Shown here: positions 3,526-22,800 of the stretch, one piece after another
How the letters are laid out: every line of letters starts with the position of its first letter
Numbering within the stretch: the stretch's first letter is position 1
Translations under genes and position numbers: made by a program
Source: a virus
Length of the DNA stretch: 64,000 bases
IMG/VR virus record: IMGVR_UViG_3300048593_000672
Coordinates: 1-64,000 of that record
Direction: 5' to 3' (one strand)
The notes under the pieces: generated by a model
The model's input: only the letters and a program-made list of their open reading frames with translations
What the model was told of the DNA's origin: nothing
Databases searched by the model: none

Positions 3526-6459
3526 ATGAACAACCATCAAGCACTGATAGACGGGCTTACGACGCTACATAAATACGCCCCTGATGCGTGGGTTTATCCC
3601 TGTAATGCTCAAAAAATGCCAGCAGCTTATCATCGTGGGGCACCTGACAGACACATCATCCCCTCCGACTTGTCCAAGGCTCTCAAAAAGGGTGAACTAC
3701 TACTACCTTGTCCCGCCGACAATGACAAGAGCTTAAACCAGAATAAAAACGTCATCCCAGACACCACTGGATTTAAGCTGTTGACTGGCCGCAAATTCAG
3801 TTATCAGTGCCAGCAAGTCGTGTTAATCGCCATTGATGTTGATGGGGATGAGGCGAGGGAGACGCTTAATGTTTTGCGTGGCGATCGCCCACTCCCCCCT
3901 ACTGTTACCTGGTCATCGGGAAAACATGGTCGTTGCACGTACCTCCACCATTTCTCTGCTGGTGCTATTAAAGACACGCTTAAGAATAAGTCCCTGGGCA
4001 TTAAGGACGGGCGGGTAATCAAAGTCAACGGTGGGAGGTTAGAGATCATTGCTAATTGGCCTGGGGTTGTTGTTCCCCCCTCCGCCCATGCTGAAACCGA
4101 TGGTTATACATTTTGGGAGGGCCGATCATTTGCTGAAATAGCGATCGCTGAATTGCCAGATTATTTTGTGAGTTACCTGTGGGAAGAAAAGCGGATTAAG
4201 TCGCTTGATGACATTAAGTTACCCGTAGATGCAACTATCCCACTAATCGAATGCTGCTCTAAAGAAGTTCGGCAATTAGTTAATGATGGGGTGCCTGAAG
4301 GTTCAGGACACAACGATCAGTCTATTGCAGTTGCGTTAGAGTTGGTGGCGGTTCAGCGTTATTTAGACTATTTGGGTCAGTCTTACGATGCGGATGCAAC
4401 AAGTTATTTTACCCGATTCTTGGTGGCAAGCAATGTTGATGGGCGACGAGCAGAAGGACGTATTGAATGGGCTAAAAGCAAAAACGTTATTGAGCCAGCC
4501 TGTAAGCAGGAAGGTGTCAATAACTGTATTCGCGGCTGGTATTGGACTGAACATCTAAAAAACAATAATAGTTTTTCACAATTGGCACCAGCCAGCAAAA
4601 ATAAAGCGATTACACCAGAACAACAATCCAGTATTTGGGAACAGTTAAAAACACTCTATCACAGTCAAAATAGCATACAGGACATAGAGCTAGGGATAGC
4701 TAAAATCGCTTTTGAAAACAGTCGTCAACGCTCGGAAATCGAACGTCTCTATCAGTCTGTTTGTAAGACATTAGAGCAGGATCTAGCTAAGGATTTAGCC
4801 AATGAAGAGTTTAGCGAGTTTCAACTTAATACCAACCTCTTAATTGATATTGCCGATATTCTCCCCCCAGAACTAGCGGTAGAGTTAAAACGTAAAGCCA
4901 AAAATCGTTTTCATCCTTTACGTTACTTGGCTTATCTGTGGCCAGCTTGCGGAACATTGGTAGGGGCAAAAGCCCATGTAGTTGATCCTCGCGCCTCAGA
5001 TTGGCAATCCTATTTTATTTTTTATTGTATTGACATGGGGCTTAAGGGGGATGGAAAAACCACTGCCGGTAATTCAATCATGTATTACTTATTAAATAAG
5101 TTAATTGAAGCTGATCAGGAATGGGTAAGACTCCAAACCCAATTAAAGAATGTAAAACGGGCGTGGAAGCGAATGACACCACCAGAGCGTGAACACAATA
5201 CTGGTGATGCCAACCTTGATCCAGATGCTTTTGAGGATACTATTGAGGCAAAGAAAAAATGGGTTTTTAATAATCCCACAGTGCCAGCCGTATTAAAGTT
5301 TTTATCCGAACAAGATCCGTGGCATTCTGCTATTTTATTTAATGATGAACTGGCAAGTTTGATTAAGGGATTCAATCAATATAGTAAGGGAGATGGTAAT
5401 GATAAGGAGTATTGGTTGCAAGCTTTTAATGGACGTTCCTATTACGGATCTGAGCGTGTAACCGAGGGCAAAACTCATCAACTCCGAGGTCAGTTAATAC
5501 AGATTGCGGGGGGGATGCAACCTGACGTTTTCCGACAGCATTTATCTTTAGCAAAAAATCAAGATGGTTTAACAGACCGTTTTTTAATCTGCGATCCGCC
5601 AGAGATTGATGTGCCGATGAGGATGGACTTTGTGGAAACTAATCATGTTGCTATGCTTAATAAGATTTTCAAGTCTTTAGAGTCAATTCCGGTTGACAAG
5701 GATCGCTTCAGTTCTTACCCAATTTACTTTGAATCGGATGCGGCTCAGTATTGGGAAAAGTGTTGGGTAAGACTTAATCAATTAAAAGCTGAAAATCGAA
5801 TTAAAAACCCAAACTTTAGCGGTTATTGCGCCAAACTAATCACATACTTTCCCCGTCTTGCTGGTATTCTTTCCCTTATTTGGCAAGCGCATTATCGGGA
5901 TGAGGATGAACAATTTATACCAGCAAAGATACCTTTACACATAGCAGAAAAAGCATGGTCGCTTATCTGTTTTTATGCAACTCAATATATCAAAGCCGCC
6001 GCTATGTCGGATGAGTCGGCCAACCCACTTAGCAAGTTACTGAAAGACATTTGGGTTGTGGTTGAGCGTGACGGATCTATTACCCCCAGGCAAATTATTC
6101 AGTATTTTGGCAGTCGCAACGTTGGACAAAAGTTTGACTCTGCTTTTGCCAAGAGTCAGCTACAGGTGTTGGCTGACAATGGTTATGGCATCATTGAGCC
6201 AACTAAGAACAGTGGTATTCGACTCATTTATAAGGCTCCATCCGTAATCAAACAATCTGTCTTTAAGTTGCCAGAAATTCCCAAGCAATTAATTAAAGGG
6301 TGTGTTGCTAAAGTTTTATCCCCCAACTATGGGGTTGAGACAGATAGCGTTTGCTTCGTCTTTGAGCTTGACCACGACAATGACATTGCCCAGGTAATGT
6401 TGGAGGGGATAGATAATCCAGTTCCCATTCCATTTAGGCATTTGGCAAAGCAAGATTAG
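3526..6459 (+). CDS. Prim-Pol (AEP) primase fused to DUF3987/YfjI-type P-loop helicase domain
   Basis: AIDVD and VVPPSAH Prim-Pol motifs; GLKGDGKT Walker A; NDEL, GGMQP, DGLTDRFL DUF3987-like motifs. Confidence 0.8.
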   Translation: MNNHQALIDGLTTLHKYAPDAWVYPCNAQKMPAAYHRGAPDRHIIPSDLSKALKKGELLLPCPADNDKSLNQNKNVIPDTTGFKLLTGRKFSYQCQQVVLIAIDVDGDEARETLNVLRGDRPLPPTVTWSSGKHGRCTYLHHFSAGAIKDTLKNKSLGIKDGRVIKVNGGRLEIIANWPGVVVPPSAHAETDGYTFWEGRSFAEIAIAELPDYFVSYLWEEKRIKSLDDIKLPVDATIPLIECCSKEVRQLVNDGVPEGSGHNDQSIAVALELVAVQRYLDYLGQSYDADATSYFTRFLVASNVDGRRAEGRIEWAKSKNVIEPACKQEGVNNCIRGWYWTEHLKNNNSFSQLAPASKNKAITPEQQSSIWEQLKTLYHSQNSIQDIELGIAKIAFENSRQRSEIERLYQSVCKTLEQDLAKDLANEEFSEFQLNTNLLIDIADILPPELAVELKRKAKNRFHPLRYLAYLWPACGTLVGAKAHVVDPRASDWQSYFIFYCIDMGLKGDGKTTAGNSIMYYLLNKLIEADQEWVRLQTQLKNVKRAWKRMTPPEREHNTGDANLDPDAFEDTIEAKKKWVFNNPTVPAVLKFLSEQDPWHSAILFNDELASLIKGFNQYSKGDGNDKEYWLQAFNGRSYYGSERVTEGKTHQLRGQLIQIAGGMQPDVFRQHLSLAKNQDGLTDRFLICDPPEIDVPMRMDFVETNHVAMLNKIFKSLESIPVDKDRFSSYPIYFESDAAQYWEKCWVRLNQLKAENRIKNPNFSGYCAKLITYFPRLAGILSLIWQAHYRDEDEQFIPAKIPLHIAEKAWSLICFYATQYIKAAAMSDESANPLSKLLKDIWVVVERDGSITPRQIIQYFGSRNVGQKFDSAFAKSQLQVLADNGYGIIEPTKNSGIRLIYKAPSVIKQSVFKLPEIPKQLIKGCVAKVLSPNYGVETDSVCFVFELDHDNDIAQVMLEGIDNPVPIPFRHLAKQD

Positions 6460-6761: not shown

Positions 6762-6830
6762 ACAAAGTTCTACTTTTGTTTTGATAATGCTCTTGCCAAC
6801 TTTAATTTGTCTTGTTTTGTGGGGGTGGCA

Positions 6831-7829
6831 ATGATAACTTTTGCCAGTCTTTTTACTGGATATGGTGGGGCTGATCTGGGGGCTGTCCATGCAGGATTGA
6901 CCCGTGTATGGGGGATTGAAAAAGACCCTAGTATTGCTTACGTTGCCAACTTAAATCATGGTAACTATATCTTATGTTTAGACGCAAAAGATTGTAATTT
7001 TAGCTTGTTTCAACGTCCAGACTGGCTACACGCAAGCCCTCCCTGTACAACTGCCACTGTAGTTAATGACAAAAAAGAATCACAGGAAGATATTGATTTA
7101 GCTCAGGCAATTTGTCGAGCGATTGAGGTATTGCAACCTCAATATTTTAGTCTTGAAAATGTTGCGGGTTATGTCAGATATCAATCTTTTGCCAAGATCG
7201 TATCACGACTATACGATCTTAATTACGCATGGGATTATAAAGTCTTGGATTGTTCTGATTACGGAGTTCCACAAGCTCGAAAAAGATTATTCTTTGTAGC
7301 GTCAAAAAATCCCTCTGTTTTTGGATGGGTTGATCGCATTCCAAAAGTAGAGGAAAAAGCCAATTGGTATGACGCGATCGCTGATTTAATCCCTACTCTC
7401 CCAGAATGCAAGCTAAAAGAGTCTCAAAAAACAGCGTTAGTTAATAGTCATGAAGTTTTGACTAACTCCATTGAAAAGTCAGAATACTTCCGACAATTAC
7501 CAAATCTAGCTATTCAAAATAGCGGTTCTCGCAAAGATAAAGACGGGAATCCTACTAACACTATCCGACTAGCCAATGAGACTATCTGGACTATTAGGGC
7601 TATGTCTGGCAACGTCCGACCTAACCCCCATCAAGTAACTTTAATCGTTGATGGTCGGGTATTACGTCCTACGATTGAATGTTATGCCAGATGGCAATCT
7701 TTTCATAATAGCTATCAGTTTAGCGGTGATTTTAAGCTAGATATGCGCGGAGTGGGCAATGCAGTCCCACCATTAATGTTTTCTCAAATTGTAAGGAGTG
7801 TTTTAAATGATTTTTGCAAAACTTACTGA
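6831..7829 (+). CDS. DNA cytosine-C5 methyltransferase
   Basis: LFTGYGG, SPPC, ENV, GVPQARKR, GNAVPP motifs. Confidence 0.93.
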   Translation: MITFASLFTGYGGADLGAVHAGLTRVWGIEKDPSIAYVANLNHGNYILCLDAKDCNFSLFQRPDWLHASPPCTTATVVNDKKESQEDIDLAQAICRAIEVLQPQYFSLENVAGYVRYQSFAKIVSRLYDLNYAWDYKVLDCSDYGVPQARKRLFFVASKNPSVFGWVDRIPKVEEKANWYDAIADLIPTLPECKLKESQKTALVNSHEVLTNSIEKSEYFRQLPNLAIQNSGSRKDKDGNPTNTIRLANETIWTIRAMSGNVRPNPHQVTLIVDGRVLRPTIECYARWQSFHNSYQFSGDFKLDMRGVGNAVPPLMFSQIVRSVLNDFCKTY

Positions 7830-8137: not shown

Positions 8138-9091
8138 ATGAAGACTTACATTATCACTTGGCTTCGTGGCAATCAGACTCTATATCTTAGCGAGATACTT
8201 GGAAGCCAATCAAATTGGAGTCATGACATTAAAGACGCTCTCAGATTCTCCCAAAACAATATTCCCAATCTCTGTATAGATAAGTTTTATCAAGTTCATG
8301 ACTTGAGTAAGCTTCGCAAACTAATTAAATCCCCCCTACGCTACCCAGGCGGCAAGTCAAGAGCCATCAAACACATTCTCCCACTTTTTCCCAAGGGGAT
8401 TTCTAAGGTTGTTAGTCCTTTTATGGGCGGGGGAAACATTGAGATTAATCTGGCAAATCAGGGAATTGAAGTTCATGCCTACGATAAATTTAGCCCGTTA
8501 ATTTTTTGTTGGCAATTAATCAACAGCGTTCCCGTTGAGTTTGCAACTTTAATTCAAAAGCATTATCCGTTATCAGAAGCAAGCTTCTATCGAGAGCAAA
8601 AGCGTTATTGTTCGTTACTGGAAGCGGACAATTTTATGGAGGTAAGACTTGAATTAGCTTTATGGTTCTTTATCCTAAACCGTTCATCGTTTAATGGTAC
8701 AACATTGTCTGGGGGGTGTTCTAATCCGTCAAAACAGTTCACTCAGTCATCTATTGATCGGGTACGTAACTGGCAAAAATTAGACAACTTAAAAATCGGT
8801 TATGCAGATTTCAAGGATTCACTAAATGCACACAAAGATGCGTTTGTCTTTGCAGATCCTCTATACATGATTGACAGCAATCTTTATGGCAATAAAGGCG
8901 ATTTACATAAGAATTTTGACCATCAAGGATTGTTTAAATACTTAAATGATAGAAATGGTTGGATTCTCTGTTACAACGATTGTTCAACTATCAGGGAGAT
9001 GTATTCACGGTTTAAAATTGTTGAACCTGAATGGAGTTATGGTATGGGCAAAAATAAAAAGAGTCGTGAACTCTTGATTTTAAATTATTAG
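8138..9091 (+). CDS. Dam-like (D12 class) adenine methyltransferase with variant DPLY motif
   Basis: SPLRYPGGKS, PFMGGG, LNRSSFNG; DPLY in place of DPPY. Confidence 0.85.
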   Translation: MKTYIITWLRGNQTLYLSEILGSQSNWSHDIKDALRFSQNNIPNLCIDKFYQVHDLSKLRKLIKSPLRYPGGKSRAIKHILPLFPKGISKVVSPFMGGGNIEINLANQGIEVHAYDKFSPLIFCWQLINSVPVEFATLIQKHYPLSEASFYREQKRYCSLLEADNFMEVRLELALWFFILNRSSFNGTTLSGGCSNPSKQFTQSSIDRVRNWQKLDNLKIGYADFKDSLNAHKDAFVFADPLYMIDSNLYGNKGDLHKNFDHQGLFKYLNDRNGWILCYNDCSTIREMYSRFKIVEPEWSYGMGKNKKSRELLILNY

Positions 9092-10644: not shown

Positions 10645-11217
10645 ATGAGCAATCTAACCAACTTCTTAGATGATTTTACGTTTGAAAAGCCTATTTTATT
10701 CTCTACCCTAATAGTTCAAGCCATTTTAGAGGGGCGTAAAACTCAAACTCGGAGGGTGATTAAATGCGACTTTTATGTTGAGAATGACCCACCTTTAACA
10801 GCATATATTCCATGCTACATTACTGGGGAGCCACAACCAGTTAAACTACCTTGCCCCTATGGACAAATCGGTGACAGGCTATGGGTGCGGGAGACGTTTG
10901 CTTATCATCACACTGGACAGCTTTTTTACAAGACAGATATTCCAGTCCTTTGTCATAAAAACTGGAAATGGAAACCATCTATCTTTATGCCCCGCACAGC
11001 ATCACGAATCACCTTAAAAATAACCGATATTCGTATTGAGCGATTACAGGATATTAGTGAAGAAGATTGTCTATCTGAGGGCATCAATTATCAAGGTAAT
11101 GCGTATGATACTATCGGCGCATTTAGCGACTTATGGGATTCTATTAACGCTAAAAAACACCCTTGGCAATCTAATCCTTGGGTTTGGGTAATTGAGTTTA
11201 AGAGGATTGAAAAATGA
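10645..11217 (+). CDS. ASCH/PUA-like phage protein
   Basis: PILFS...AILEGRKTQTRR, CPYGQIGDRLWVRE, WKPSIFMPR, NPWVWVIEF. Confidence 0.8.
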   Translation: MSNLTNFLDDFTFEKPILFSTLIVQAILEGRKTQTRRVIKCDFYVENDPPLTAYIPCYITGEPQPVKLPCPYGQIGDRLWVRETFAYHHTGQLFYKTDIPVLCHKNWKWKPSIFMPRTASRITLKITDIRIERLQDISEEDCLSEGINYQGNAYDTIGAFSDLWDSINAKKHPWQSNPWVWVIEFKRIEK

Positions 11218-13181
11218 CCGCTTTTTTATCAACACCCACACCACTAAGTTTAGTTAAGCCCAAACTAACTCCACCTGTCCTGCGGGAAGACCAGTTAAAT
11301 GTTAAGCGCCAAGGCTATCAGTTAATCCGTGAAGGCCACAAGCGCATTCAGTTCGTTTGCCCTTGTGGTTGGGGAAAAACTGTTTTGGCTGTTAGTTTGA
11401 TTCACGACATCGCTTTTAAGGCCCAGGAACAGAAGGGTGGTAAAGAACGTAAAGTTTTGTTTTTAGTTCATGCCACCTGTTTAGTTGATCAGACTATTCA
11501 ACAGCTTGCTACTGCTGGTATTTGGGCGGGAATAATTGCGGGGGGCTATAAAGAAAACCGCCACAAAAACGTTCAGGTTGCGATGGTTCAAACCCTTGTC
11601 AAGCGTGACATTAGCTGGTTTGTTCCTGATGTAATTATTGCTGACGAAGCCCATGAATCGCTTTGGTATAAGTGGTCATTAGAGCGTTTTCCTAAACTCA
11701 AAGACGGCCAAACCATTTTTACGGCTGGTGCTTTAGATAATGAGTTGAGAGCTATCGGTTTTAACATTGACGCGACTATTTTGAATGGCGATCGCTATCC
11801 CACTTTTGAAGAAGTAAAGCACCAGCACAAAGAATTTTTGAAGTCTAATCACCCCGATCGTGGGGGGAGCAAAGAAATTACCCAACAGGCTAATGCAGCT
11901 TGGGATGTTCTTAAAGACCATCGTGACTTGTTTGATAGTGGCGATCGCCCAACTAACGCTCCTATCCTGATCGGACTAACTGCAACCCCCTGGCGATTAT
12001 CCAAACGTCAATCAATGGGTGACATCTTCCCAGTCCAAGTGTTAGGCCCCACGCCTGGAGAGATGGTTGCGCTAGGTCAAGCGACTAATTTTCAACAGGG
12101 TTTAGTCCCGTTCGTTTACTGGGGTATTGGTGGGGCTGAAACTAAATCATTACGAGTCCCGAGGGGGGGATCGGATTTCACTGAAGCCCAATTAGATGAA
12201 AGTTTTGCCATTCCCGAAGTTGTCCAGTGTGCGGTGGATAATTACATGGATAAGTCAAAGGGTCGTCGGTTCGTCTGCTTCCCTGTCTCCATCCACCACG
12301 CCCAGATGTTAGTCCATGCCTTTACTCGTGCTGGTATTCCTTGCGCTCTTATCAAGGGCGATACTCCCAACGGTAGTAAAGACAAGATTACGGACAAAGA
12401 GACCCGTAATTCTATCTACGCAAAAGTTCGTAAAAAAGAGTTGATGGGGATAATTTCGGTAGGCTGCATAAATTTAGGATTTGACCTACCTGAGATTAGC
12501 TGTGTGATTGATTGCTGTCCAACTTTAAGCCGTTCCAAATATGTTCAGGGGGCTGGTCGGGGCCAACGGATCGCGCCCTGGGATGGAAAAGTTGACTGTC
12601 ACTACCTCGACCAGGCGGGGAATGTGATGCGACATGGGCAGATCGAATCTATCCAGTATGGGGAATTAACACCAGCAGGGGAAATTATTCCTGAAGAAGC
12701 CCCCATGAAAGAATGCCCTGAGTGCCATCGGCTTTTAGTCACCTTCCACATGAAATGTATTCATTGTGGCTATGAGTTTCCCGCCCCCGAAAAAGAGCTT
12801 GCTGTCGGTGATATGCAGTTAATCGTTAGGGAAGATGAAGAGGGTCTTTACTATGCCTTTAAGGACTTACTACGTCAAGCTTATCAGTTTAATAATGCTC
12901 CATATTGGGCTGAAATGCAAATCAATGAACATGAACTTTACAAAACCCATAAATCAGTTAAGAACAAACAAATTCAGCTTGACAAAAAAGGCAAGCATTT
13001 GTTATGGCATCCCGTTAAAGCTTGGTATCACCACGCAATTTTTGAAAAGCCCACAAAAGAGGACGAACAAGCCTATATGCAATACTTGCAGAATGTAGCA
13101 TCAAAATACGCTGAACCCAAGCCCGATTGGTGGTTCCGCAATTACATGAAAAAGGAATTTGGGGAGGGTTGGAATGGATAA
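11214..13181 (+). CDS. SF2 DEAH helicase with inserted J-domain and C-terminal Zn ribbon
   Basis: CGWGKT, DEAH, TATP, QGAGRGQR, CPEC/CIHC; HPD insert between motifs II and III. Confidence 0.9.
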   Translation: MTAFLSTPTPLSLVKPKLTPPVLREDQLNVKRQGYQLIREGHKRIQFVCPCGWGKTVLAVSLIHDIAFKAQEQKGGKERKVLFLVHATCLVDQTIQQLATAGIWAGIIAGGYKENRHKNVQVAMVQTLVKRDISWFVPDVIIADEAHESLWYKWSLERFPKLKDGQTIFTAGALDNELRAIGFNIDATILNGDRYPTFEEVKHQHKEFLKSNHPDRGGSKEITQQANAAWDVLKDHRDLFDSGDRPTNAPILIGLTATPWRLSKRQSMGDIFPVQVLGPTPGEMVALGQATNFQQGLVPFVYWGIGGAETKSLRVPRGGSDFTEAQLDESFAIPEVVQCAVDNYMDKSKGRRFVCFPVSIHHAQMLVHAFTRAGIPCALIKGDTPNGSKDKITDKETRNSIYAKVRKKELMGIISVGCINLGFDLPEISCVIDCCPTLSRSKYVQGAGRGQRIAPWDGKVDCHYLDQAGNVMRHGQIESIQYGELTPAGEIIPEEAPMKECPECHRLLVTFHMKCIHCGYEFPAPEKELAVGDMQLIVREDEEGLYYAFKDLLRQAYQFNNAPYWAEMQINEHELYKTHKSVKNKQIQLDKKGKHLLWHPVKAWYHHAIFEKPTKEDEQAYMQYLQNVASKYAEPKPDWWFRNYMKKEFGEGWNG

Positions 13182-13721: not shown

Positions 13722-14279
13722 ATGAGAACCAAAAACTTTATCAAGACTGTCAGATCGTTAATGACTGAGACTGACCACCAAAAAGAATTTGACAACTACG
13801 TTAAATGGGAGTCAAAAAAGACAGAGCAAGGCAACCGTAACATTGATCTGTTAGCTCAAGCTGTTAATCAAGCCGTAAGCAAAGTCAATAAAACAATAGA
13901 TGATTTTAGCCGCTCTATTATTGATTGCTCAGATCGGGTTAATGAGTTTAAGAGCCTCCTGCCTATTGAGGGAGAATACAAATTAATAAGACTTATCTCT
14001 CCTAGTCGTCTTTTTATGGGGTTTGCTGATCCGACTTTTACGGTTCCCATCCCAGAATCGTGCCAAGTTTCCCCAATGAATGTGACTTGTAATTATGGGG
14101 GTTATAACAGCAATGGCGTATGGGGAATAGATTGGTATCGAACTGTGATGGGTGGCTTTGATGTTGATTTATCTGAAGCCAACGACAAAATGCACAATTG
14201 TCCCTATTTTGTCAACAGTTCCCAACTAAAATGTACAGCAAACCCCACTAATACTAATTGTTTGGAGTGTAATGAGTAA
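13722..14279 (+). CDS. Hypothetical protein with cyanobacterial Cys-rich C-terminus (DUF6464-like)
   Basis: CPYF..SSQLKCTANP....CLEC. Confidence 0.55.
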   Translation: MRTKNFIKTVRSLMTETDHQKEFDNYVKWESKKTEQGNRNIDLLAQAVNQAVSKVNKTIDDFSRSIIDCSDRVNEFKSLLPIEGEYKLIRLISPSRLFMGFADPTFTVPIPESCQVSPMNVTCNYGGYNSNGVWGIDWYRTVMGGFDVDLSEANDKMHNCPYFVNSSQLKCTANPTNTNCLECNE

Positions 14280-15061
14280 TGCTATTCACAACCCACGACC
14301 GCAACCTTATCATTGACAGCGAAACTTATTTAGCAGCCTACAGTTTTGAGCCAACTGCCATCGAAACAACCGCCACACTCGACCCCAACAATGCAGAATT
14401 AAAGTCAATCTATAGCGATCAAATCACACCAGCTTTTGTTTTGGGTGGTGGCTTGCGCGACGCTAAAATCATTCACTTACAGGGTGTAGATTGGCGATCA
14501 CTTCCCCCCACCGTTGAAGCCCATCCCTTTAAAGAAGTTGGGCAAGTCGGGAAAGTTACTGGCAAGGGTCGGACTGCTTTTACCGTAGAAAATCGCACTC
14601 GCATTAGTGCTGCTCTCGCTGGTGCTTCTGTCTTAAAGACCAGTCCACTTTGCTTACATAATTTCTGCGATGTGCCAAGAGTCGTCATTGGGGGGGGCTG
14701 TGGATTAAGTATTGGCTACTATACTCATCAAGCTACCGTTGATACTGTCAACAGCCAGTCCAGCTTTCTCTTGTCTAGTACCAGTGATTTTACCTATGGC
14801 TATATCGAATTTACGTCTGGAGAAAATGCCGGGTGTCGATTTGCTATTAGCACTGGCTACAACGGCGCAATTGAGCTTGCTGAAATACCAGAGGGAGAAG
14901 TTAAAGTAGGGGATGAGGTAACAGCCGTTGGGGGCTGTGCCAAAACTCCAACGGCTTGTCAAGCCTATGGCAACTTCATAAACTTTATGGGCATTCCCAC
15001 CGGAGGGAGTTGGATACCTGGGATGGACGCAGTTCAAAATGCACCAATTGAGAGGGCTTAA
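14279..15061 (+). CDS. GTA-type tail hub/baseplate protein (DUF2163 / BR0599 C-terminal), N-terminally short
   Basis: FTTHDRNL, C.H.FCD, FTSGENAG, GCAKTPTAC..YGNFINFMGIP. Confidence 0.85.
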   Translation: MLFTTHDRNLIIDSETYLAAYSFEPTAIETTATLDPNNAELKSIYSDQITPAFVLGGGLRDAKIIHLQGVDWRSLPPTVEAHPFKEVGQVGKVTGKGRTAFTVENRTRISAALAGASVLKTSPLCLHNFCDVPRVVIGGGCGLSIGYYTHQATVDTVNSQSSFLLSSTSDFTYGYIEFTSGENAGCRFAISTGYNGAIELAEIPEGEVKVGDEVTAVGGCAKTPTACQAYGNFINFMGIPTGGSWIPGMDAVQNAPIERA

Positions 15062-15064
15062 GCA

Positions 15065-16886
15065 ATGACTGATAAACTACAAGCACCAGCAAAGGGTGAT
15101 TATGTTTTAGCCACACTATATCCTGATGGCAATGCTGCCGATCCTTGGTTTATTGGCTATTACGATTGTCTGAGTAATGATAATCCTCCCCGTCATTTTA
15201 TTTTAGATAATGAGGGAAAAAGAGACTATCACTCCTATCGAAAAGTGTCAGTAATCACACAAGATATTGGTGATTGGCTAATAAAAGAAAAAGACAAGCT
15301 TGAAACATTGAATAAAGACTTGTGGCCCATTGTAAATAGACTATTGAGAGGGCTTAATGTACCTTCAAGTTGATCTTTTCGGAGAACACCAGCCAGTGGA
15401 TAAACATGGCAATCCGTTGAAAATTGGGGATAAAATCAAAATCTCTAAAGATGATACTCTAGGTGCCACTGTTATTGGTTGTGAAGTCAATCTAGTTGTC
15501 TTTGACGGCTATCGTACAATGTCATTTGACTCTAGTTTATTGGAGAAAATTAACAATGACTAAGGAACAATTTGCAGCAATGCTTGATGATCGTCAATAT
15601 GGCGATGAAATCACTACTGGAGAGTGTAAACTAGCTAATGAACATGGTTTGTTGGTTGTCTTTGGGGATAGTGATGATGGAGTAAAAATGCGTGGTTTTT
15701 ATCATTACTTCTTCAATGCAATTAAAGGTGGATCGTGGCAGTTCTTTCTGACTGACAATAATGAACTTGTTTTCGCTGCACAAGATAGCTTGTTTTCTTC
15801 TGCCATAGACAGGAGCAAGCCATTAATCATAGAAGCCAATTGGTGTCCAGATAATCTTGATACTTCATGGCTAATTAAAGCCAATGTGGATTGTGCAACT
15901 TTTGACATCTTTGAAGATGATGAACTATTTTGTCGGGGTGTCGTTCTCGATAAGAAAGATATTGTTAAAGCATTATTAGGAGAGAATTAACCATGATTGA
16001 CTTTACACCCCTTGAATTACAAGTTATTCACACAGTCTTACGATTAACCAATGAGAAAAGTCCTGAGCCACTTCCAGAGTCTAGTCGGGAATGGGCAGAT
16101 GCTATGAGGTCGGCTATTAAAAAGATTGAAGACTTTGCCAAGTCGGGAGATTAATCAATGACAACTAATACCAGTAAAGGAATGATTGAAGTTGATTGGG
16201 GAGTATCAATAGAAATAAACTCCTTAACGGTTCAGCAGCCAAGTGGATTACAGGGAGGGATTTTTGTCGAAGCTCTTTATTGCCATAATGGGCAAAAAAA
16301 ATGGCGAATTAAATCCGAAGCTTATTTTTATGGAAAAGATAAAACATGGATTGATTTTTACGACAAAGAACAATTTACTGACACTTACTGTTGGGACGAT
16401 ATGGTAGAAGCATTTTTATTTGCTCAAAAACATTTAATTGAAAATTAGGGGGTTAACAATGCCAGACAATAACTCAACAAAGTATAGTATCAGCCAAGCT
16501 TTTAGATTGGCTGGGCGAAAAGCTGCAATTGCACTTCAGGAAGAACGTCATGAATTTGATAAGCCTAAAAAGCAAAAACCTAAAAAACAAAAACCTGAAT
16601 GGATGAGGTTGGATCAATGAGCAATAAAGTTTTAAAGCCTGCAAAAGATTTAGTTGTTGGCGAAAAATTCAACTTTAATAATGGGGAAAAACCTTCATAT
16701 GTGTGGGTAGTTGACAGCATAAAAAAAGACCCTCGATTCCCCAACGAAATAGAACCAATGGATGTGTGGGAAATCACTTATCACATGGAGCATCCTGATA
16801 TTCAATCCCCCCGTCAGCATTTTGTCCACGCTGATAAAAGTGATCTTGTTTTAGCGATAGTTAACGCACCCCCGCCCGTAATTTAG
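15065..16886 (+). CDS. Cluster of small hypothetical early genes (15065-15373, 15357-15563, ~15556-15990, 16158-16448, ~16617-16886)
   Basis: Overlapping start/stop codons, same strand. Confidence 0.5.
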
Positions 16887-19800
16887 CCAACTGGCGATCG
16901 CGTTCAATCTGACTCATTGACTTGCCAAGATCATTCGTGTTAGCCACTTCAATCTTAATGGTTTGATTGAAGTTGTTAACAGTTCCCTCGCTGGTATTAG
17001 TCTGAGTAGTGTTGGGGATGTAGGAAACAGGGCCGCCCTTGGCAAAATTCTTAACATCCTTGGCCATACGTTCTGACCAGTCTTTATAGTTGCGGTAGTC
17101 GCTGGCTTCGTTTGCAGAAATCACATACTCGTCAGCATTAAGGACGGCCAGGATGGGCCGCTTACCACCCGACTGCGACCTCTCCCGATTCATTGCTTGA
17201 CTAATGCCTTCTACCAGTCCCCCACCCGCATAATTATCAATCTTGAGGGGGTCAACGGGGCCGCCGTCGGCAAAGTTGAACGCATGACTAATCATTCCTG
17301 TAAAGCCGCCCGATAAGCTGTCAGCTATTGATTGACCCGCACTGGCATTACCAGCGTTAAACAGATTGCCAAAAATATCACTGCCAGCATTGATAAAGCT
17401 ACCGCCGCCGCTAACTGTTAAAGCACCAGCAAAAGCAGATAGGGCTGTAGTCGCTTCTGTCAGTCCCAAAATAAAACCGGCCATGGCGGGGTCAGTGGAA
17501 GTAATACCAGCGAGGAAAATGTTATCCATTGCTTGGCTGGTATTAGTCGTTGATTCCGTCAGGCTAGTAAATGCACTACTCAAATCAATTGTGTCGGGTA
17601 AAGCTTGACCTGTTGTTAATGTATTGCTTAAGTCAAAAGGCACAATGTTGTTGGCCGCTATGCTTGCCCCCCGCTCACCTAGTCGCGTAATTACATGGGG
17701 ATAAAATTCTTTGTTATCCAGACCGAGCATTGGCCCAACCCATTCAGCGATCGCATTTTGGAAGGGTTTGATAGCTAACTGCTCTAACATCATCCCCAAA
17801 ACAAGATCCTTGACTTTGTTGAGCGACTCCCCTAGTCCCTTAGACTCTAGGATCGCGCTACGCAGCCCCGAACTAAACTCTTTTAGACCTGGGATAGCGT
17901 CAACAAATGATCGCTTAATATTTAACTCACTAATCTCAGCCTGAAACCGCCGCATTTCACTAGCCTGTTGAGGCGAGTAAGCACCATCCCGAATCTGCTT
18001 CTCTAAATCAACTCTGGCTTGAGCCGCTTGCATCCGAGCATTAATAATCGCACTGGGGTCAATTAACGTTCCCATTCCCCAATCATTCTGCGCCCCAACG
18101 TCATAACGGGTTTTGTAGAGGTCAGCTTGAATTTTGGCATAACCCTGTTTAGATGCCATAATTTTATCGAGTCGCAACCAGGCTTCAGTGGCTCGTTTAG
18201 TGGGTTCTTCTAACGCAGCCATCGCCTTGGATTGCCTGTCAATTTCTTCCCGACGAGCTTGCATAATGGGAATGCTGTCGGTATAAAGTTTTAAATTGCT
18301 TTGATAAACAGACATAGCTTGCAACTCTTGAGTAGTTGCTTGGCGACCAGCTTTCGTCAGTTCAGCTTGCTTGTCAGCTAAGGCTTGTGCCGCAACCGCC
18401 GCACCAATATAGGCATCATCCATCTGTCTGCCAAGATTCCGCAATTCATCATCAAAATCACGGTTCATCTGGCGGAATTGTACACTAACTCCTTCTACAG
18501 CCAGGTTAATCTCATCAGCAGCCGTTTTATAGCCCTTGCTGTTAATGGCTAACTCACGATACTTGATATTGTTATCCTCAACTTTTCGACTCAAGTTAAG
18601 AGCCATATCTTGAAGGGATTGTAATTGCTGTTGGAAGGCATTGTTGAACTTGACCACCTCAAGATTGCCTTGCAGATCAAGCACAGCCCGATTGACCCCA
18701 ATTGTCGCATTCTTAACATCATTAATCTGACCAGCCGTATTAGTTAAACTACTCGTATCTTGTACAGTGATTGGATTTTGATCTGTAATTTGCTGTAAGC
18801 CGCTATAGTCATTAATTGCCCTTGGCTGGTATTTTGTAATAAATGGACTTTGTACGTTTGGCAGGACATTTCCCCCATTCATATCAACTTGAGGCTCAAG
18901 TTGAGAAGGTTGATAGCCTGGGAGTGTTTGATATTTTTTAATGTTGGGGTTGACATTGGCATTGCTACTACCAATCCCCTTGGCCGCATCAACTCTTGCC
19001 TGACTTTCCTTAAATTGTTTGGCAATTGCCTCAGTGCGTTTTTTCCAATCCTTCGACGACATCCTATCAATAAACTTAATGCCTTTTGACTCATAAAACT
19101 CATCAAGTTTAAAGGCTTCAGGATAAAGTTCTTTTTGATATTTGATAATATCTTCTAATGGCTTGCGGCTAATATTATTTGGATCGTTCAACTCAGCTTG
19201 ACGTTTTCTTGCCTTCTCCTGTTCGATCCGTTTGGCCCGCGCAGCAGTAGTGGCATTAGTCTGGAAAATTGCAGATCCCATATCACTAATACCCTCACTG
19301 GCATCAGCGACTAGCCACTCTTTGGGGGCCGCCGATCTCATTTGATTGTATAAGATACCCCTTACTCTAGATAAAGACTTCAAGTATTTAGATCCGTAGG
19401 CTGGATCTGTAGCATAGCGACCATAGCGACCCTTAAAGTCACGGTTGATAAAATCTTCAGGAGTGCTAAAGAAAAAGTCTTTTTTAAGTTTAATTGCTGC
19501 GTACTCTAAGCCCTGTCCGTAGGTTTTAAAGTGCTTGTTATTGCCAGCATCATCGTTGCCATAGTTCAGTGGGTTTTTAGTAAACTTCCCTCGTCCCTTG
19601 GTTCCAAAATGGCTTTCAATAAATGCTTGAGTTACTAAGGCATCAATGCTAACTCCTGACTTGGTAGCAGCATTTTTAAAATCCTCAACTGTCATTTGAG
19701 AACCATACTGGTTCAGCAATCTTGCTAAGTTTTTCTCCCATCCCATCGATTGAGTAGTAGCAGCCTGCGCCGGAGCGGTCAAGATGTTTTGCGCTGGTAC

Positions 19801-22800
19801 TTGTAGTTGATACGATGTTTTAACTTGCTTTGGTGCAGCAAGATTTAATCTCATCCCCCCGCCATACTTGCCCATCAGCCCGTTTAGTCCATTAACATCC
19901 CCAGGTGCGTAGTATTTAGTTGGTTGTACGACCGCACTTGGCTGACCAATCGGGACTGAGAACGGGACTCGTTCAACTACCGACTCACCGTAGCGGGGAT
20001 CGATATTAATACCAGCAGAGGGATTGTATGAGAGAGGGGCGGCTGGCAGTGAAGGGAGCTTGTTTTGATAGCCGCTATTGGGAGCTTCTTTCGTAATCCG
20101 GGTTATGATTTGCTCTAGCTCACGCCCTAACTTAATAGATGACGACTCCATCTGCATCATCATTGACCTAAACTGTTCATTGAGCCGGATGATGCTACGA
20201 GTGCGTTCCTCTTCGGCCCGCAGTTGTTTCTCCTGTTCATCCCGAATGCGCCGGAGAGTCGTCACATACTCTTGGCCAACCTGACGTTGTTTCTCATCAA
20301 GCGATCGCCCTTCCCCTTCCAAATTGCCGATATTCGCGAGGAAGTCAACAAAGATACTGGCAGTCTTTTTACCAATACTGTCGGGTTGGAAGCTGATGGA
20401 TTCAACAGCCAGCGTAGCCTTAGCTTGTCTCAGTTTCTCGCTGGTGCTTTTAAGTTCATTCTGAGCGGCCAATAGTTGACCTTCCAAATCAAACTGTAAA
20501 TCAGCCCAAGCCTCCTGCAAACCGCGAGTCTCGATAAAGGCATTACGGGCTGAATCCTGCACAGACCAGCCAAAGTCACGGACTTGTTGTTGCCAACCAA
20601 TCTCAGTCTCTAGCACAGAGCGGTTAAAGTCCTCTACCGATTGACCCAAGCCCCGATAATACTCTTCAGTGTTCTGTCCCGACTGCATCACTGCAAACTC
20701 AGCTTTAGCTACAGCTTCATTAGCACTTGCTAGTTGTTTAGCTAACTCTACTGGGTCTTGGGAGTTATCCTTAAACAGTGCTTTAACATCTCTTAACTGA
20801 CGTTTAGCTGTAGCCAAGTCATTGTAAGCAGAAAAAGCTTGAATATCTTGAGTGCCAATTTTGCCCTTACTAGCAGCTTGATACATCTCAATATTCGTGT
20901 TGCTAGCCGCAATCTGGGTGTTAGCTTGACGGATAGCATTGAGTCGTTGTTGCTGTAGCTTTTCAAGATCAATTTGAGCTTGTAAAACTTTGCCCTCTAA
21001 CTCATTCGCTTGCTGGTATTTTTCTTTAAACTTAATAGATTGCTCTAAGAAAGTTTTTAGTCCCCCGCTAATACCATCCCCAGATTCAACCAACGCCTTC
21101 ATTGTCTCCACGCTGGTATTCATGATCATGTCTAGGGGGTCTTTATATTTCTCCCCACCACGACCTCGTAACTCAAGCCGGTTCATTGCATCCTGAGCGA
21201 CACTTGGCTCTAGTCCATTTAAAGCAAAACCTTTAAATGTTTCAGCATCTTGTTTAACAGGCAATAATTCCCGTTTGGCAGTAGTTAAGTTATCTAAAGC
21301 TTGCTGGCGTTGTAAATCAATATCATCAAGTTTTTGATTAAGCCGAGCTTCAAGTAATTGATTATTACGACGACTTGCTAACCCCTGATTGTATTCAGCG
21401 ATATTAGCACCAGCAGAAGAAACTAATTGACTAGCTCCTTGTAAACCAGGAATCTTTTGGTTGATAGAACCAGTGTGCATTCTGATTGCTTCTAGCCTGA
21501 CGTTGGTATCAGACATTAGCTTGGCAATGACTTCTAGCTTTGCCTCACGTGCTTGAGCGTCGGGATTCTTTTTGACTGTCTCCCTCATAGCCTCATAAGC
21601 TTTATTCATCTGCTCTAAAGCAATCTGATTGCCAAAAGTTTCATTGACGGCTTTTTCTCGATCCCCCACCTTTACTGCCAACTCAGCACTAAGGTTTTTA
21701 AACTCCTCACGGTTGTTACCACCCAATTTACTGTTATTAGCTAAACGAGTTCTGATAACAGCAATCTCTCGATCTAGCTGAGAAATATCAGCTTTACCTT
21801 TTGCAAGGTTTTGGGGATTAGCGTAATTTGCATCCGCCTGTTCGATCAGTCTTTTGCCATAGCTAATACCCCTGTCAACTTGCTTGAGGTCTTCCATCAA
21901 ATCCCGCCGATCATCCTTATCCATGCGAACGGATTTGTAGATATTGCCTTTTTCGTCTCGGTAGTCAATAACGATGTTATTTATGCCACTATTTGGCGCA
22001 CTTGGATCAAAGCCAAATGGATGGGTGTAGTTATTTAGAACACCACCAAAAACTCGTTGGGCAAAGTCGCCAACTCCAGTGATAGGTGTTGGATTGCTGC
22101 CACCAAGTCTTGTGTAAGTTGGATCATTTCGATCAACCTTATTGGGGTCTTTCATCTTGCCAGTCAACGTATTAGTAGCTTCCAGATTATTAATCATCTG
22201 CTCTAATTCATCGTTAGTCTTTTTCAATTCCCCGTGATAGGACTGCCAAATTTTAGTTCCTTTATCAATCGCAAATCCAATAGCAGCAAAAGCAATTAGT
22301 TGGGGGGCGATCGCATATAAAGCACTTCCGATACCAGAAAGCGCACCAGCTGTAGCAGCTAAACCCCTTACCGCCACATTGCTAGACGATCCACTGATAA
22401 CCAGGTTCGTGTTTAGTTTGGCTAGTCCAGTATTTAAGCCATTGAGTATCCAGTTATTAGTCATAAACTCAAGCCCCAAAACCTTGAGCGCAATCGTTAC
22501 AACTCTTGAGGCTGTTCCCGTATCCAGTAAAGCAAAGACAAATTTAGCCCCAAGCATCGTTACTAAAAGTCCCAGACTCGCCGTTAATCCCGTCGCTACA
22601 CTGTTAAGCGCATTCATCCCACCAACAGCTATATCCATTGCTGGCTTGCCAACTCCCAAGATTGTTTCTCCCATCCGACCCTGTAGTTTTTCCTGGGCGT
22701 TCTGGAATCGGGCGATACTACCGAGCGGCCCTTCCTTCACCGTATTAATCGGTAATGTTGCTTCGTAGGCTAGTTGTTTGGCCAAGGGTTGCAAGTCTGT

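What the first reader, a model, noticed from the sequence alone, without database searches (positions are those of the whole stretch)
11690..11960. DnaJ-type J-domain inserted in a phage SF2 helicase
Seen: between DEAH and TATP lies an insert, TFEEVKHQHKEFLKSNHPDRGGSKEITQQANAAWDVLKD, with HPD at 11850-11858, matching J-domain helices II-III. Established: HPD stimulates DnaK/Hsp70; lambda replication needs DnaJ/DnaK; SV40 T antigen couples a J-domain to a helicase. Inference: the helicase may recruit host DnaK itself to remodel replication or initiation complexes.
Basis: partly seen in the sequence, partly recalled or inferred. Interest (0 to 1): 0.7.

Follow-up and report, generated by a model that had tools for sequence, protein, structure and literature searches.

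The report
J-domain embedded in phage helicase
An uncultured lake phage of cyanobacteria carries a DNA helicase with a complete Hsp70-recruiting "J-domain" spliced into its motor core, an architecture I did not find described for phages, which suggests the helicase brings the host chaperone DnaK to viral DNA transactions.

Summary
ORF 11214-13181 (+, 655 aa) is a RadD-like SF2 helicase. About 95 extra residues sit between motif II (DEAH, aa 144-147) and motif III (TATP, aa 256-259), with HPD at nt 11850-11858.

The insert is a real J-domain:
- Its family profile hits only J-domains in the PDB (DNAJA1 2e-8, polyomavirus T antigen 3e-8).
- AlphaFold models give the four-helix fold with HPD in the helix II-III loop.
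- The top structural neighbours are Tim14 and T-antigen J-domains, though those scores are weak.

The window's own Pfam DnaJ score (16-20 bits) is below the curated cut-off of 27.8.

The window is a 74.7-kb, 94%-complete virus record from lake water. HIP1 palindromes (31 found, 0.25 expected) mark a cyanobacterial host. It encodes no Hsp70.

The insert most likely arose once in this helicase family. It is under purifying selection as strong as the catalytic core (dN/dS 0.027 against 0.044). HPD was later lost at least three times, mostly in a low-GC, HIP1-free clade.

Recruitment of host DnaK is the best explanation (about 0.6) but is untested, and the client is unknown. I found no deposited phage genome or published census with this architecture, so I rate it a new variant of a known kind. 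An earlier first-reader note from an overlapping window marks the same stretch; its follow-up was withheld.

The parts
11214..13181 (+). Gene for a 655-aa RadD-like SF2 helicase carrying the insert. Its start overlaps the stop of the upstream phrog_874 gene (ATGA).
   Evidence: ORF. (Pfam ResIII aa 23-149 at 5e-15; Helicase_C aa 341-453 at 3e-10). (phrog_16 DNA helicase, 9e-62). (Foldseek best match E. coli RadD 7r7j, 1e-17). (RadD 5.9e-13 by sequence).
11367..11381 (+). Motif I / Walker A, GWGKT (aa 52-56)
   Evidence: Sequence. G54, K55 and T56 are nearly invariant in alignment A1.
11643..11654 (+). Motif II / Walker B, DEAH (aa 144-147)
   Evidence: Sequence. D144, E145 and H147 are invariant in A1.
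11667..11954 (+). Whole lineage-specific insert (aa ~152-247): a short beta-hairpin lead-in (FPKLKDGQTIF) followed by the J-domain
   Evidence: Absent from insert-less homologues P0030, P0036, P0045, P0051 and P0053. Bimodal motif II-III spacing. pLDDT 84-95 in the full-length model.
11721..11939 (+). J-domain core (aa 170-242): helix I 171-180, extra short helix 185-190, helix II 198-211, HPD loop, helix III 220-235, helix IV 238-241
   Evidence: AF2 secondary structure. (profile against PDB: all 60 listed hits are J-domains, best 2.2e-8). (Tim14 Z 6.9, rmsd 2.1 over 60 aa; mPyV T antigen Z 6.2). (Foldseek top hits are J-domains / T antigens). (Pfam DnaJ 20.0 bits, E 7.6e-4, positions 5-56 of 63).
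11850..11858 (+). HPD tripeptide (H213 P214 D215), followed by RGGS: the short 'HPDxGG' loop type seen in T antigens and Tim14
   Evidence: CAC CCC GAT. Invariant in all 13 HPD-bearing inserts aligned.
11979..11990 (+). Motif III, TATP (aa 256-259)
   Evidence: Sequence. T256 and P259 are invariant in A1.
12234..12572 (+). RecA2 / Helicase_C domain, including motif VI QGAGRGQR
   Evidence: PF00271, aa 341-453. Q445, G448, R449, G450 and R452 are invariant.
12708..12782 (+). Four-cysteine zinc ribbon (CPEC...CIHC, aa 499-523), as in RadD
   Evidence: UPF0547 zinc-ribbon, 18.5 bits, below cut-off. C515 and C518 are invariant and C501 and C504 nearly invariant.
12831..13178 (+). C-terminal helical domain (aa ~540-655), conserved in the family
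   Evidence: helices 540-558, 564-587, 615-629, 638-649; pLDDT about 90. Y621 and L625 are invariant.
3526..6459 (+). Context: PrimPol + DUF3987 (D5-type) primase-helicase, the likely replicative enzyme of the same early module. Its partnership with the J-helicase is inferred only.
   Evidence: Prim-Pol 7.7e-13; DUF3987 1.8e-28. The same gene lies upstream of the J-helicase in L083 and L086.

Best explanation
The gene encodes an active-looking RadD-like SF2 DNA helicase/translocase of a ~75-kb siphovirus-like cyanophage from lake water. A complete class-C J-domain was inserted once, in an ancestor of this helicase clade, into the surface loop of RecA domain 1 between motifs II and III.

In a J-domain both termini lie at the base of the helix II-III hairpin (established topology). 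I therefore infer that the HPD loop projects away from the motor. Proposed mechanism: the exposed HPD and helix II dock onto ATP-bound host DnaK and trigger its ATP hydrolysis. DnaK then clamps onto a client located at the helicase, which could be the helicase itself or a protein bound to the DNA structure it works on (fork, recombination intermediate, primase-helicase complex). This would couple Hsp70 remodelling to phage DNA replication or recombination.

Shown here: the domain's identity, its position, its single origin, its selective constraint, and the lack of a phage Hsp70. Inferred: DnaK binding and stimulation, and the identity of the client.
For: J-domain identity:
- The insert-family profile against PDB sequences returns only J-domains: DNAJA1 2.2e-8, murine polyomavirus T antigen 2.9e-8, Tim14 4e-6, E. 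coli DnaJ 8e-6.
- Pfam DnaJ matches 14 of 30 family members, best 1.9e-9. The window's insert alone scores E 7.6e-4.
- The full-length AF2 model has pLDDT 86.6 overall and 84-95 across the insert, with the J helix pattern and HPD in the loop.
- For the insert-only model, the best structural neighbours are Tim14 (Z 6.9), T antigens, and phage J proteins.

Functional constraint:
- HPD is invariant in 18 unique HPD-bearing inserts whose insert identity to the window falls as low as 28%.
- The position equivalent to DnaJ Y25-K26 is [Y/F/H]-[K/R] in all of them (H205-K206 in the window).
- dN/dS between the window and L001 is 0.027 in the insert and 0.044 in the helicase core.
- In the clade that deleted HPD, the Tyr25-equivalent is Cys in many of the listed insert sequences, as expected if that residue was kept only for DnaK contact.

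Dependence on the host:
- No Hsp70 is found in this 94%-complete genome, nor in four related virus records that are at least 92% complete (a fifth, 58% complete, also has none). This is the only J match in the genome.

Helicase competence and context:
- Motifs I, II, III and VI are intact.
- The gene sits in the replication module, and that position is conserved across clades.
Against: - No biochemical data exist.
- The window's own Pfam DnaJ score (16.3 to 20 bits) is below the gathering cut-off of 27.8.
- Structural matches for this small helical domain are statistically weak: Foldseek E 0.02-0.1, VIA Z below 8.
- Helix II is about charge-neutral (3 K and 3 E in the window), whereas canonical DnaJ helix II is strongly basic (my own knowledge).
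- The DnaJ Phe47-equivalent is Thr223 in the window and Met in most relatives, as in T antigens.
- At least three lineages lost HPD yet kept the domain (5-aa deletion HHPDHGGTKE to HAESKE; H to P; degenerate in P0025, P0027 and P0039). So the insert has, or can acquire, an HPD-independent role.
- I could not inspect model coordinates or PAE to verify that HPD is solvent-exposed.
Confidence: 0.6

Rival explanations
1. The insert is a J-like structural or protein-docking module, as Tim16/Pam16 is to Tim14. It derives from a J-domain but now serves the helicase in a DnaK-independent way, for example as an oligomerisation surface, a partner-binding surface, or a wedge or regulator of the ATPase cleft between motifs II and III. 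On this view HPD in the window is a not-yet-lost relic.
For: HPD was lost independently at least three times while the roughly 75-80 remaining residues of the domain were kept intact: 33 of 52 unique long inserts lack HPD, and one has PPD. pLDDT is higher in the full-length context (84-95) than in isolation (75.6), which suggests the domain packs on the core. Helix II is not basic.
Against: HPD and the Y/F/H-K/R pair are invariant across the whole HPD-bearing set, even at 28-57% insert identity to the window. dN/dS of 0.027 includes the loop. The large HPD-less clade is shallow: L084, which still has HPD, differs from L002 by branch lengths of about 0.017. So that clade's retention of the domain says little about long-term selection. 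A relic tripeptide would not be expected to survive this much divergence.
Confidence: 0.2
2. Host take-over. The J-domain's purpose is to engage or titrate host DnaK globally, for example to release a stress regulator and raise chaperone levels, as phage RB43 Rki does through sigma-32. The helicase is merely an abundant early protein that carries it.
For: There is precedent: Rki, a phage J-protein, acts through DnaK on sigma-32 (PMC3486835). The gene lies in the early module. The nearest stand-alone relatives of the insert are tiny 80-140-aa J-proteins without client domains.
Against: A free small J-protein would do this job and is what phages usually encode: 48 of 49 unique phage JDPs have no other known domain (PMC13254874 citing Barriot 2020). 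Inserting the domain inside RecA1, and keeping it there across at least 5 clusters at 50% identity, points to a function tied to the helicase.
Confidence: 0.12
3. Chance resemblance: a helical insert that happens to contain HPD and is not homologous to J-domains.
For: The single-sequence Pfam score is sub-threshold. Small helical hairpins give many middling structural matches (note).
Against: All 60 listed PDB profile hits are J-domains, with E down to 2e-8. A profile built only from the window and loci finds 6913 proteins at E<=1e-3; every one of the ten I inspected carries an HPD-type J motif. Four relatives carry precomputed Pfam DnaJ hits. Nearly all of the top ~40 BFVD hits are T antigens or phage J proteins.
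Confidence: 0.02

Closest known systems
Polyomavirus (SV40, murine) large T antigen
   Same: A viral protein that joins an HPD J-domain to a DNA helicase on one polypeptide. The J-domain has the same short 'HPDxGG[S/D]...M..hN..W' type. The murine polyomavirus T-antigen J-domain (1faf) is the second-best PDB sequence hit (2.9e-8) and among the best structural hits. The T-antigen J-domain is needed for efficient viral DNA replication (review PMC13254874).
   Different: T antigen is an SF3/AAA+ hexameric initiator helicase with an N-terminal J-domain on a flexible linker and an origin-binding domain. Here the helicase is SF2 and RadD-like, probably monomeric and accessory, and the J-domain is embedded inside RecA domain 1. 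The host is a bacterium. I read this as convergence, not homology of the architecture.
E. coli RadD (YejH), SF2 DNA repair helicase-like ATPase (PDB 7r7j, 6jde, 8h5y)
   Same: Best structural (1e-17) and sequence (5.9e-13) match for the helicase body: two RecA domains, a 4-Cys zinc ribbon and a C-terminal helical domain.
   Different: Identity is only 18-20%. The NCBIfam RadD equivalog scores 63 bits against a cut-off of 720, so this is not an orthologue. The Foldseek match covers the RecA, zinc-ribbon and C-terminal body; I did not inspect the RadD alignment over the motif II-III region.
Rki of T4-like phage RB43 and other stand-alone phage J-proteins
   Same: Phage-encoded class-C J-domains that exploit host DnaK (PMC3486835).
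   Different: Those are small proteins with no other known domain: 48 of 49 unique phage JDPs in the census cited in PMC13254874. Here the J-domain is an internal insert of an enzyme.
Tim14(Pam18)/Tim16(Pam16) pair of the mitochondrial import motor
   Same: The Tim14 J-domain is the best structural neighbour (Z 6.9, rmsd 2.1 A over 60 aa, 25% identity) and has the same HPDxGGS loop. Tim16 is a J-like domain without HPD, mirroring the HPD-less helicase clade.
   Different: The cellular context is unrelated (membrane-tethered import motor), and those are not inserted into an enzyme.
Lambda O/P-DnaB disassembly by DnaK-DnaJ-GrpE
   Same: Phage DNA replication that depends on Hsp70 remodelling of a helicase-containing complex (established knowledge).
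   Different: Lambda uses the host's own DnaJ in trans. Here the phage supplies the J-domain in cis on a different (SF2) helicase, and no loader-release step is known.

Membership tests
J-domain (Pfam PF00226; class C J-domain protein) | Sequence match to the J-domain profile at the curated threshold | tested here: inconclusive
   The window's protein scores 16.3 bits (whole) and 20.0 bits (insert alone, E 7.6e-4), below GA 27.8. However, 14 of 30 family members match (best 1.9e-9), 4 relatives carry precomputed PF00226 hits, and the insert-family profile hits PDB J-domains at 2e-8.
J-domain (Pfam PF00226; class C J-domain protein) | HPD tripeptide in the loop between helices II and III | tested here: met
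   H213-P214-D215 lies between predicted helices 198-211 and 220-235. It is invariant in 18 unique HPD-bearing inserts.
J-domain (Pfam PF00226; class C J-domain protein) | Four-helix fold with an antiparallel helix II-III hairpin | tested here: met
   AF2 models. The top-ranked neighbours are J-domains in three libraries: Tim14 Z 6.9, 1faf Z 6.2 with TM 0.54/0.61, and T antigens in BFVD. Individual scores are weak for so small a domain. There is an extra short helix (185-190) between helices I and II.
J-domain (Pfam PF00226; class C J-domain protein) | Residues essential in E. coli DnaJ besides HPD (Y25, K26, F47; from my own knowledge of Genevaux et al. 2002) | tested here: inconclusive
   By register from HPD: H205-K206 in the window ([Y/F/H]-[K/R] in all relatives). 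The F47-equivalent is T223 in the window and Met in most relatives, as in T antigens. No E. coli DnaJ sequence was aligned directly.
J-domain (Pfam PF00226; class C J-domain protein) | HPD-dependent stimulation of Hsp70/DnaK ATPase | not testable with these tools
   Needs biochemistry or genetic complementation.
SF2 helicase, RadD-like | Two RecA-like domains with motifs I, II (DExH), III and VI | tested here: met
   GWGKT 52-56, DEAH 144-147, TATP 256-259, QGAGRGQR 445-452. Pfam ResIII and Helicase_C. AF2 fold with RadD as best match.
SF2 helicase, RadD-like | Zinc ribbon and C-terminal helical domain after RecA2 | tested here: met
   C501/C504/C515/C518 are conserved. UPF0547 zinc-ribbon match is sub-threshold at 18.5 bits. 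The RadD alignment spans about 510-610 columns.
SF2 helicase, RadD-like | Orthology to E. coli RadD (NCBIfam NF053632 equivalog cut-off) | tested here: not met
   63.1 bits against a cut-off of 720. It is therefore RadD-like, not RadD. It belongs to phage family phrog_16.
Polyomavirus large-T-antigen architecture | N-terminal J-domain + origin-binding domain + SF3/AAA+ helicase | tested here: not met
   The helicase is SF2, the J-domain is internal (aa 170-242), and no origin-binding domain was detected. This is a functional analogue only.

The most novel reading that the evidence does not exclude
The phage helicase acts as a DNA-structure-targeted Hsp70 adaptor. By carrying the J-domain inside its motor, it fires host DnaK exactly where it is bound on forks or recombination intermediates. 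That would make it a bacterial-virus counterpart, arrived at independently, of polyomavirus large T antigen. On this reading the repeated loss of HPD marks lineages that moved from cyanobacterial hosts to HIP1-free, low-GC hosts (possibly Bacteroidota), where the partnership with DnaK no longer worked or was no longer needed.
Probability: 0.3. Interest if true: 0.8.

Novelty: new variant of a known kind. Interest (0 to 1): 0.62.

Why it matters
J-domain proteins decide where Hsp70 acts. Known phage J-proteins are almost all small stand-alone proteins, and the only well-studied virus that fuses a J-domain to a helicase is the animal polyomavirus.

A J-domain built into an SF2 helicase of cyanophages would be a second, independent case of this arrangement. 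It would give a simple bacterial system for asking what Hsp70 does at a viral replication or recombination machine.

The family also offers natural controls: closely related helicases with HPD, with a clean 5-residue HPD deletion, and with no insert at all.

It is also a clear example of domain insertion into a RecA-fold loop that tolerates a folded module. The same loop carries low-complexity inserts in Okeania relatives.

Tried and rejected
- **Single-sequence Pfam.** The DnaJ match is sub-threshold, so I could not rest on it and moved to family profiles.
- **Structural significance.** Foldseek of the insert-only model gave no match at E<=0.001 in PDB or BFVD, and VIA Z stayed below 8. I used these only as rank evidence.
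- **Independent acquisition in P0037.** It fell outside the J clade in the quick tree. The constrained tree with all 19 J rows together is 9.9 lnL units better, p-AU 0.65, so a second origin is not supported.
- **HIP1 sites as mobile-element boundaries.** Two HIP1 sites (11788-11795, 11941-11948) bracket the J core. I rejected them as insertion scars because close HIP1 pairs are common in the window (4 of 30 gaps under 160 bp) and more distant homologues lack them.
- **dN/dS over the whole gene.** The value was inflated by an indel-shifted stretch at aa ~470-600 in the ungapped comparison. I recomputed on clean segments.
- **Population variation.** Contigs of four other runs were identical, so no selection test was possible.
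- **Expression.** No RNA holder is listed.
- **Genome search.** The genome-contig scan with the single protein found no relatives.
- **Literature.** Barriot et al. 2020 is not held; I used the summary in PMC13254874. Full-text searches for J-domain with cyanophage, phage or helicase found no report of this architecture.
- **Cluster look-up.** It returned no names for relatives.
Full report
**Observation**

The window holds an uninterrupted ORF at 11214-13181 (+) of 655 aa. It has SF2 helicase motifs:
- motif I, GWGKT (aa 52-56)
- motif II, DEAH (aa 144-147)
- motif III, TATP (aa 256-259)
- motif VI, QGAGRGQR (aa 445-452)

Pfam finds ResIII (aa 23-149, 5e-15) and Helicase_C (aa 341-453, 3e-10). 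CAC CCC GAT, encoding HPD, sits exactly at 11850-11858.

**Is the insert a J-domain?**

On its own, the window's sequence matches Pfam DnaJ only below threshold. It scores 16.3 bits in the whole protein and 20.0 bits (E 7.6e-4) for the insert alone, against a gathering score of 27.8. The match covers profile positions 5-56 of 63.

Family evidence is much stronger:
- Of 30 aligned homologues, 14 match DnaJ, the best at 1.9e-9. Four relatives carry precomputed PF00226 hits.
- A profile built from 13 HPD-bearing inserts (A2) was searched against all PDB chain sequences. It returned only J-domains among the 60 listed hits: DNAJA1 2.2e-8, murine polyomavirus T antigen 2.9e-8, Tim14 4e-6, CbpA 6e-6 and E. 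coli DnaJ 8e-6.
- A profile built only from the window and fetched loci (A4) found 6913 proteins at E<=1e-3 among 1.84 billion representatives. All ten that I inspected carry an HPD-type J motif.

Structure prediction agrees:
- The full-length AlphaFold model is confident (pLDDT 86.6, pTM 0.83), with pLDDT 84-95 through the insert. It shows helices at 171-180, 185-190, 198-211, 220-235 and 238-241, with HPD in the loop between the two long helices.
- The insert modelled alone (pLDDT 75.6) has J-domains as its best neighbours in three libraries. These are Tim14 (Z 6.9, rmsd 2.1 A over 60 aa), murine polyomavirus T antigen (Z 6.2; Foldseek TM 0.54/0.61) and SV40 small t. In BFVD, nearly all of the top ~40 hits are T antigens and phage J-proteins.
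- Individually these structural scores are weak for so small a helical domain. I use them as rank evidence only.

Taken together, I put the chance that this is a true J-domain above 0.9. Its loop is the short HPDxGG[S/D] type shared with T antigens and Tim14.

**What carries it?**

The helicase body is RadD-like. E. coli RadD is the best match both by fold (7r7j, 1e-17) and by sequence (5.9e-13). The protein has RadD's 4-Cys zinc ribbon and C-terminal helical domain. It is not a RadD orthologue: the NCBIfam equivalog scores 63 bits against a cut-off of 720. It belongs to the widespread phage family phrog_16.

The window is part of a 74,687-bp IMG/VR virus record judged 94% complete. The gene sits at the end of an early module:
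- Sipho_Gp157
- PrimPol + DUF3987 primase-helicase (3526-6459)
- C5 and N6 DNA methyltransferases
- a phrog_874 protein whose stop overlaps the helicase start

Tail genes follow directly.

HIP1 (GCGATCGC) occurs 31 times against 0.25 expected, which is the signature of cyanobacterial DNA. The sequence recurs in lake-water metagenomes. Contigs from four other runs reproduce the DEAH-J-TATP junctions without a single difference, so the fusion is not an assembly artefact.

Neither this genome nor five related virus records, four of them at least 92% complete, encode an Hsp70. The insert is the only J-domain match in the genome. Any co-chaperone activity must therefore be directed at host DnaK.

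**Distribution and history**

I examined 216 homologues with recognisable motifs, drawn from 161 fetched loci plus database proteins. Motif II-III spacing is bimodal: about 20-29 aa in 119 of them and about 100 aa in 97.

A maximum-likelihood tree was built on the helicase core with the insert removed. It places 18 of the 19 insert-bearing rows in one clade (SH-aLRT 100), nested among insert-less helicases from cyanobacterial genomes. The exception, P0037, sat in an unresolved fork. Constraining all 19 rows to one clade gave a better likelihood (+9.9) with p-AU 0.65. A single acquisition is therefore the best-supported history.

At least five clusters at 50% identity carry the insert: P0001, P0018, P0009, P0108 and P0156.

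The nearest stand-alone relatives of the insert are very small J-proteins of 80-140 aa with the same HHPDxGGD...INxAWEIL pattern. One 119-aa protein (P0121) also shares the helix I region. These are possible donors, but that is inference.

**HPD loss**

Of 52 unique long inserts, 18 keep HPD, one has PPD, and 33 lack it. Thirty of those 33 belong to one shallow freshwater clade with a clean 5-residue deletion (HHPDHGGTKE to HAESKE). Its HPD-bearing sister, L084, is only about 0.017 substitutions per site away. P0025, P0027 and P0039 are degenerate. That makes at least three independent losses.

Loci of the HPD-less clade have 36% GC and essentially no HIP1 (1 site in 522 kb). Some were binned with Flavobacteriaceae or Crocinitomicaceae MAGs. 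HPD-bearing loci carry 2.1 HIP1 sites per 10 kb, and the window 4.8. This hints that HPD loss followed a change of host, but I could not test host assignment.

In many of the listed HPD-less insert sequences the residue equivalent to DnaJ Tyr25 has become Cys. That fits relaxed constraint on the DnaK-contact face once HPD was gone.

**Selection**

I compared the window with its closest relative, L001. The two align without gaps except in a shifted stretch at aa ~470-600. The insert shows 30 synonymous and 5 non-synonymous differences, giving dN/dS 0.027. The catalytic core (aa 1-150 plus 251-450) gives 0.044. The J-domain is thus at least as constrained as the motor.

Across the HPD-bearing set, whose insert identity to the window is 28-57%, several positions are invariant or nearly so. 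These are HPD, the following GG, the [Y/F/H]-[K/R] pair on helix II, and the N..AW and L.F positions on helices III and IV.

**Mechanism**

Shown here:
- a folded, conserved, HPD-bearing J-domain sits in a surface loop of RecA1 of an apparently active SF2 helicase
- the phage has no Hsp70 of its own

Inferred:
- J-domain termini lie at the base of the helix II-III hairpin, so HPD should point away from the motor.
- HPD would dock on host DnaK-ATP and trigger hydrolysis.
- DnaK would then capture a client at the helicase. The client could be the helicase itself or a protein on the DNA structure it processes.

The helicase body is RadD-like and a PrimPol-DUF3987 protein is present. I therefore think the J-helicase is an accessory recombination or fork-processing enzyme rather than the initiator.

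I give this explanation about 0.6. The rivals are:
- a DnaK-independent, J-like structural role (0.2), supported by the repeated HPD losses
- global manipulation of DnaK as by Rki (0.12)
- chance resemblance (0.02)

Caveats: helix II is roughly charge-neutral rather than basic, the Phe47-equivalent is Thr in the window, and I could not inspect coordinates or PAE.

**Comparison with what is known**

The closest functional analogue is polyomavirus large T antigen, which joins a J-domain to a helicase. There the helicase is SF3 and the J-domain is N-terminal, so this is convergence rather than membership.

Phage J-proteins are known, for example Rki (PMC3486835). The census summarised in a 2026 review (PMC13254874, citing Barriot et al. 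2020) lists 49 unique phage J-proteins. Of these, 48 are class C proteins with no other known domain.

None of 50,697 deposited phage genomes has a close helicase homologue; the best is 27.5% identity, in a Cylindrospermopsis phage, aligned in two pieces. A tblastn of the insert finds only 12 records, none annotated as a helicase under the match. Full-text searches found no description of a J-domain inside a phage helicase.

I therefore rate it a new variant of a known kind.

**Limits**

No RNA data were available, and no experiment was possible.

Noticed in passing
P0022 (homologue, 949 aa), and by matching length probably loci L127-L131, L134, L130, L144: In P0022 an intein of about 340 aa with a LAGLIDADG homing-endonuclease domain splits the Walker A motif (APCGYGK|C...VTHN|T). 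P0022 also keeps an HPD-bearing J-domain insert, so it carries two insertions in one RecA1 domain. The listed loci have helicase matches about 2.8 kb long, which fits the same intein, but I did not check them.
   Followed up: partly
P0029, P0032 and L005 (Okeania helicases): The same motif II-III loop carries unrelated low-complexity inserts (repeats such as GNREEKKGNREQATGNREEKKGNGQ), so this loop looks like an insertion hotspot in the family.
   Followed up: no
window 11788-11795 and 11941-11948: Two HIP1 palindromes (GGCGATCGC, both encoding Gly-Asp-Arg) bracket the J-domain core. This is probably coincidence: close HIP1 pairs are common in the window, and more distant homologues lack them.
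   Followed up: partly
window 16861-29763 (-): A single 4300-aa ORF lies on the minus strand immediately after the tail hub genes. Earlier first-reader notes call it a tape measure protein with kinase-, GNAT- and hydrolase-like inserts. I did not examine it.
   Followed up: no
window 6807-7829 and 8138-9091 (+): Two DNA methyltransferases, a C5-cytosine type (PF00145, 2e-39) and a D12-class N6-adenine type (PF02086, 4e-23), sit between the primase-helicase and the J-helicase. They are likely anti-restriction functions.
   Followed up: no
window 14279-15061 (+); L083 7874-9807; L086 9589-12131: Tail Dit/hub genes (DUF2460, Phage_phiJL001_Gp84_N, Phage_BR0599; RcGTA-like) follow within about 1.1 kb of the helicase on the same strand, in the window and in both related clades. 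This is an unusual junction of early and structural genes. In the window the DUF2460 gene seems to be missing at this position.
   Followed up: partly
loci L002-L004 and L085-L125 (HPD-less clade): These phage contigs of about 78-90 kb have 36% GC and no HIP1. Three were binned into Flavobacteriaceae/Crocinitomicaceae MAGs (L004 is an 86-kb contig, about the size of a whole phage). Either the host is Bacteroidota or the contigs were mis-binned.
   Followed up: partly
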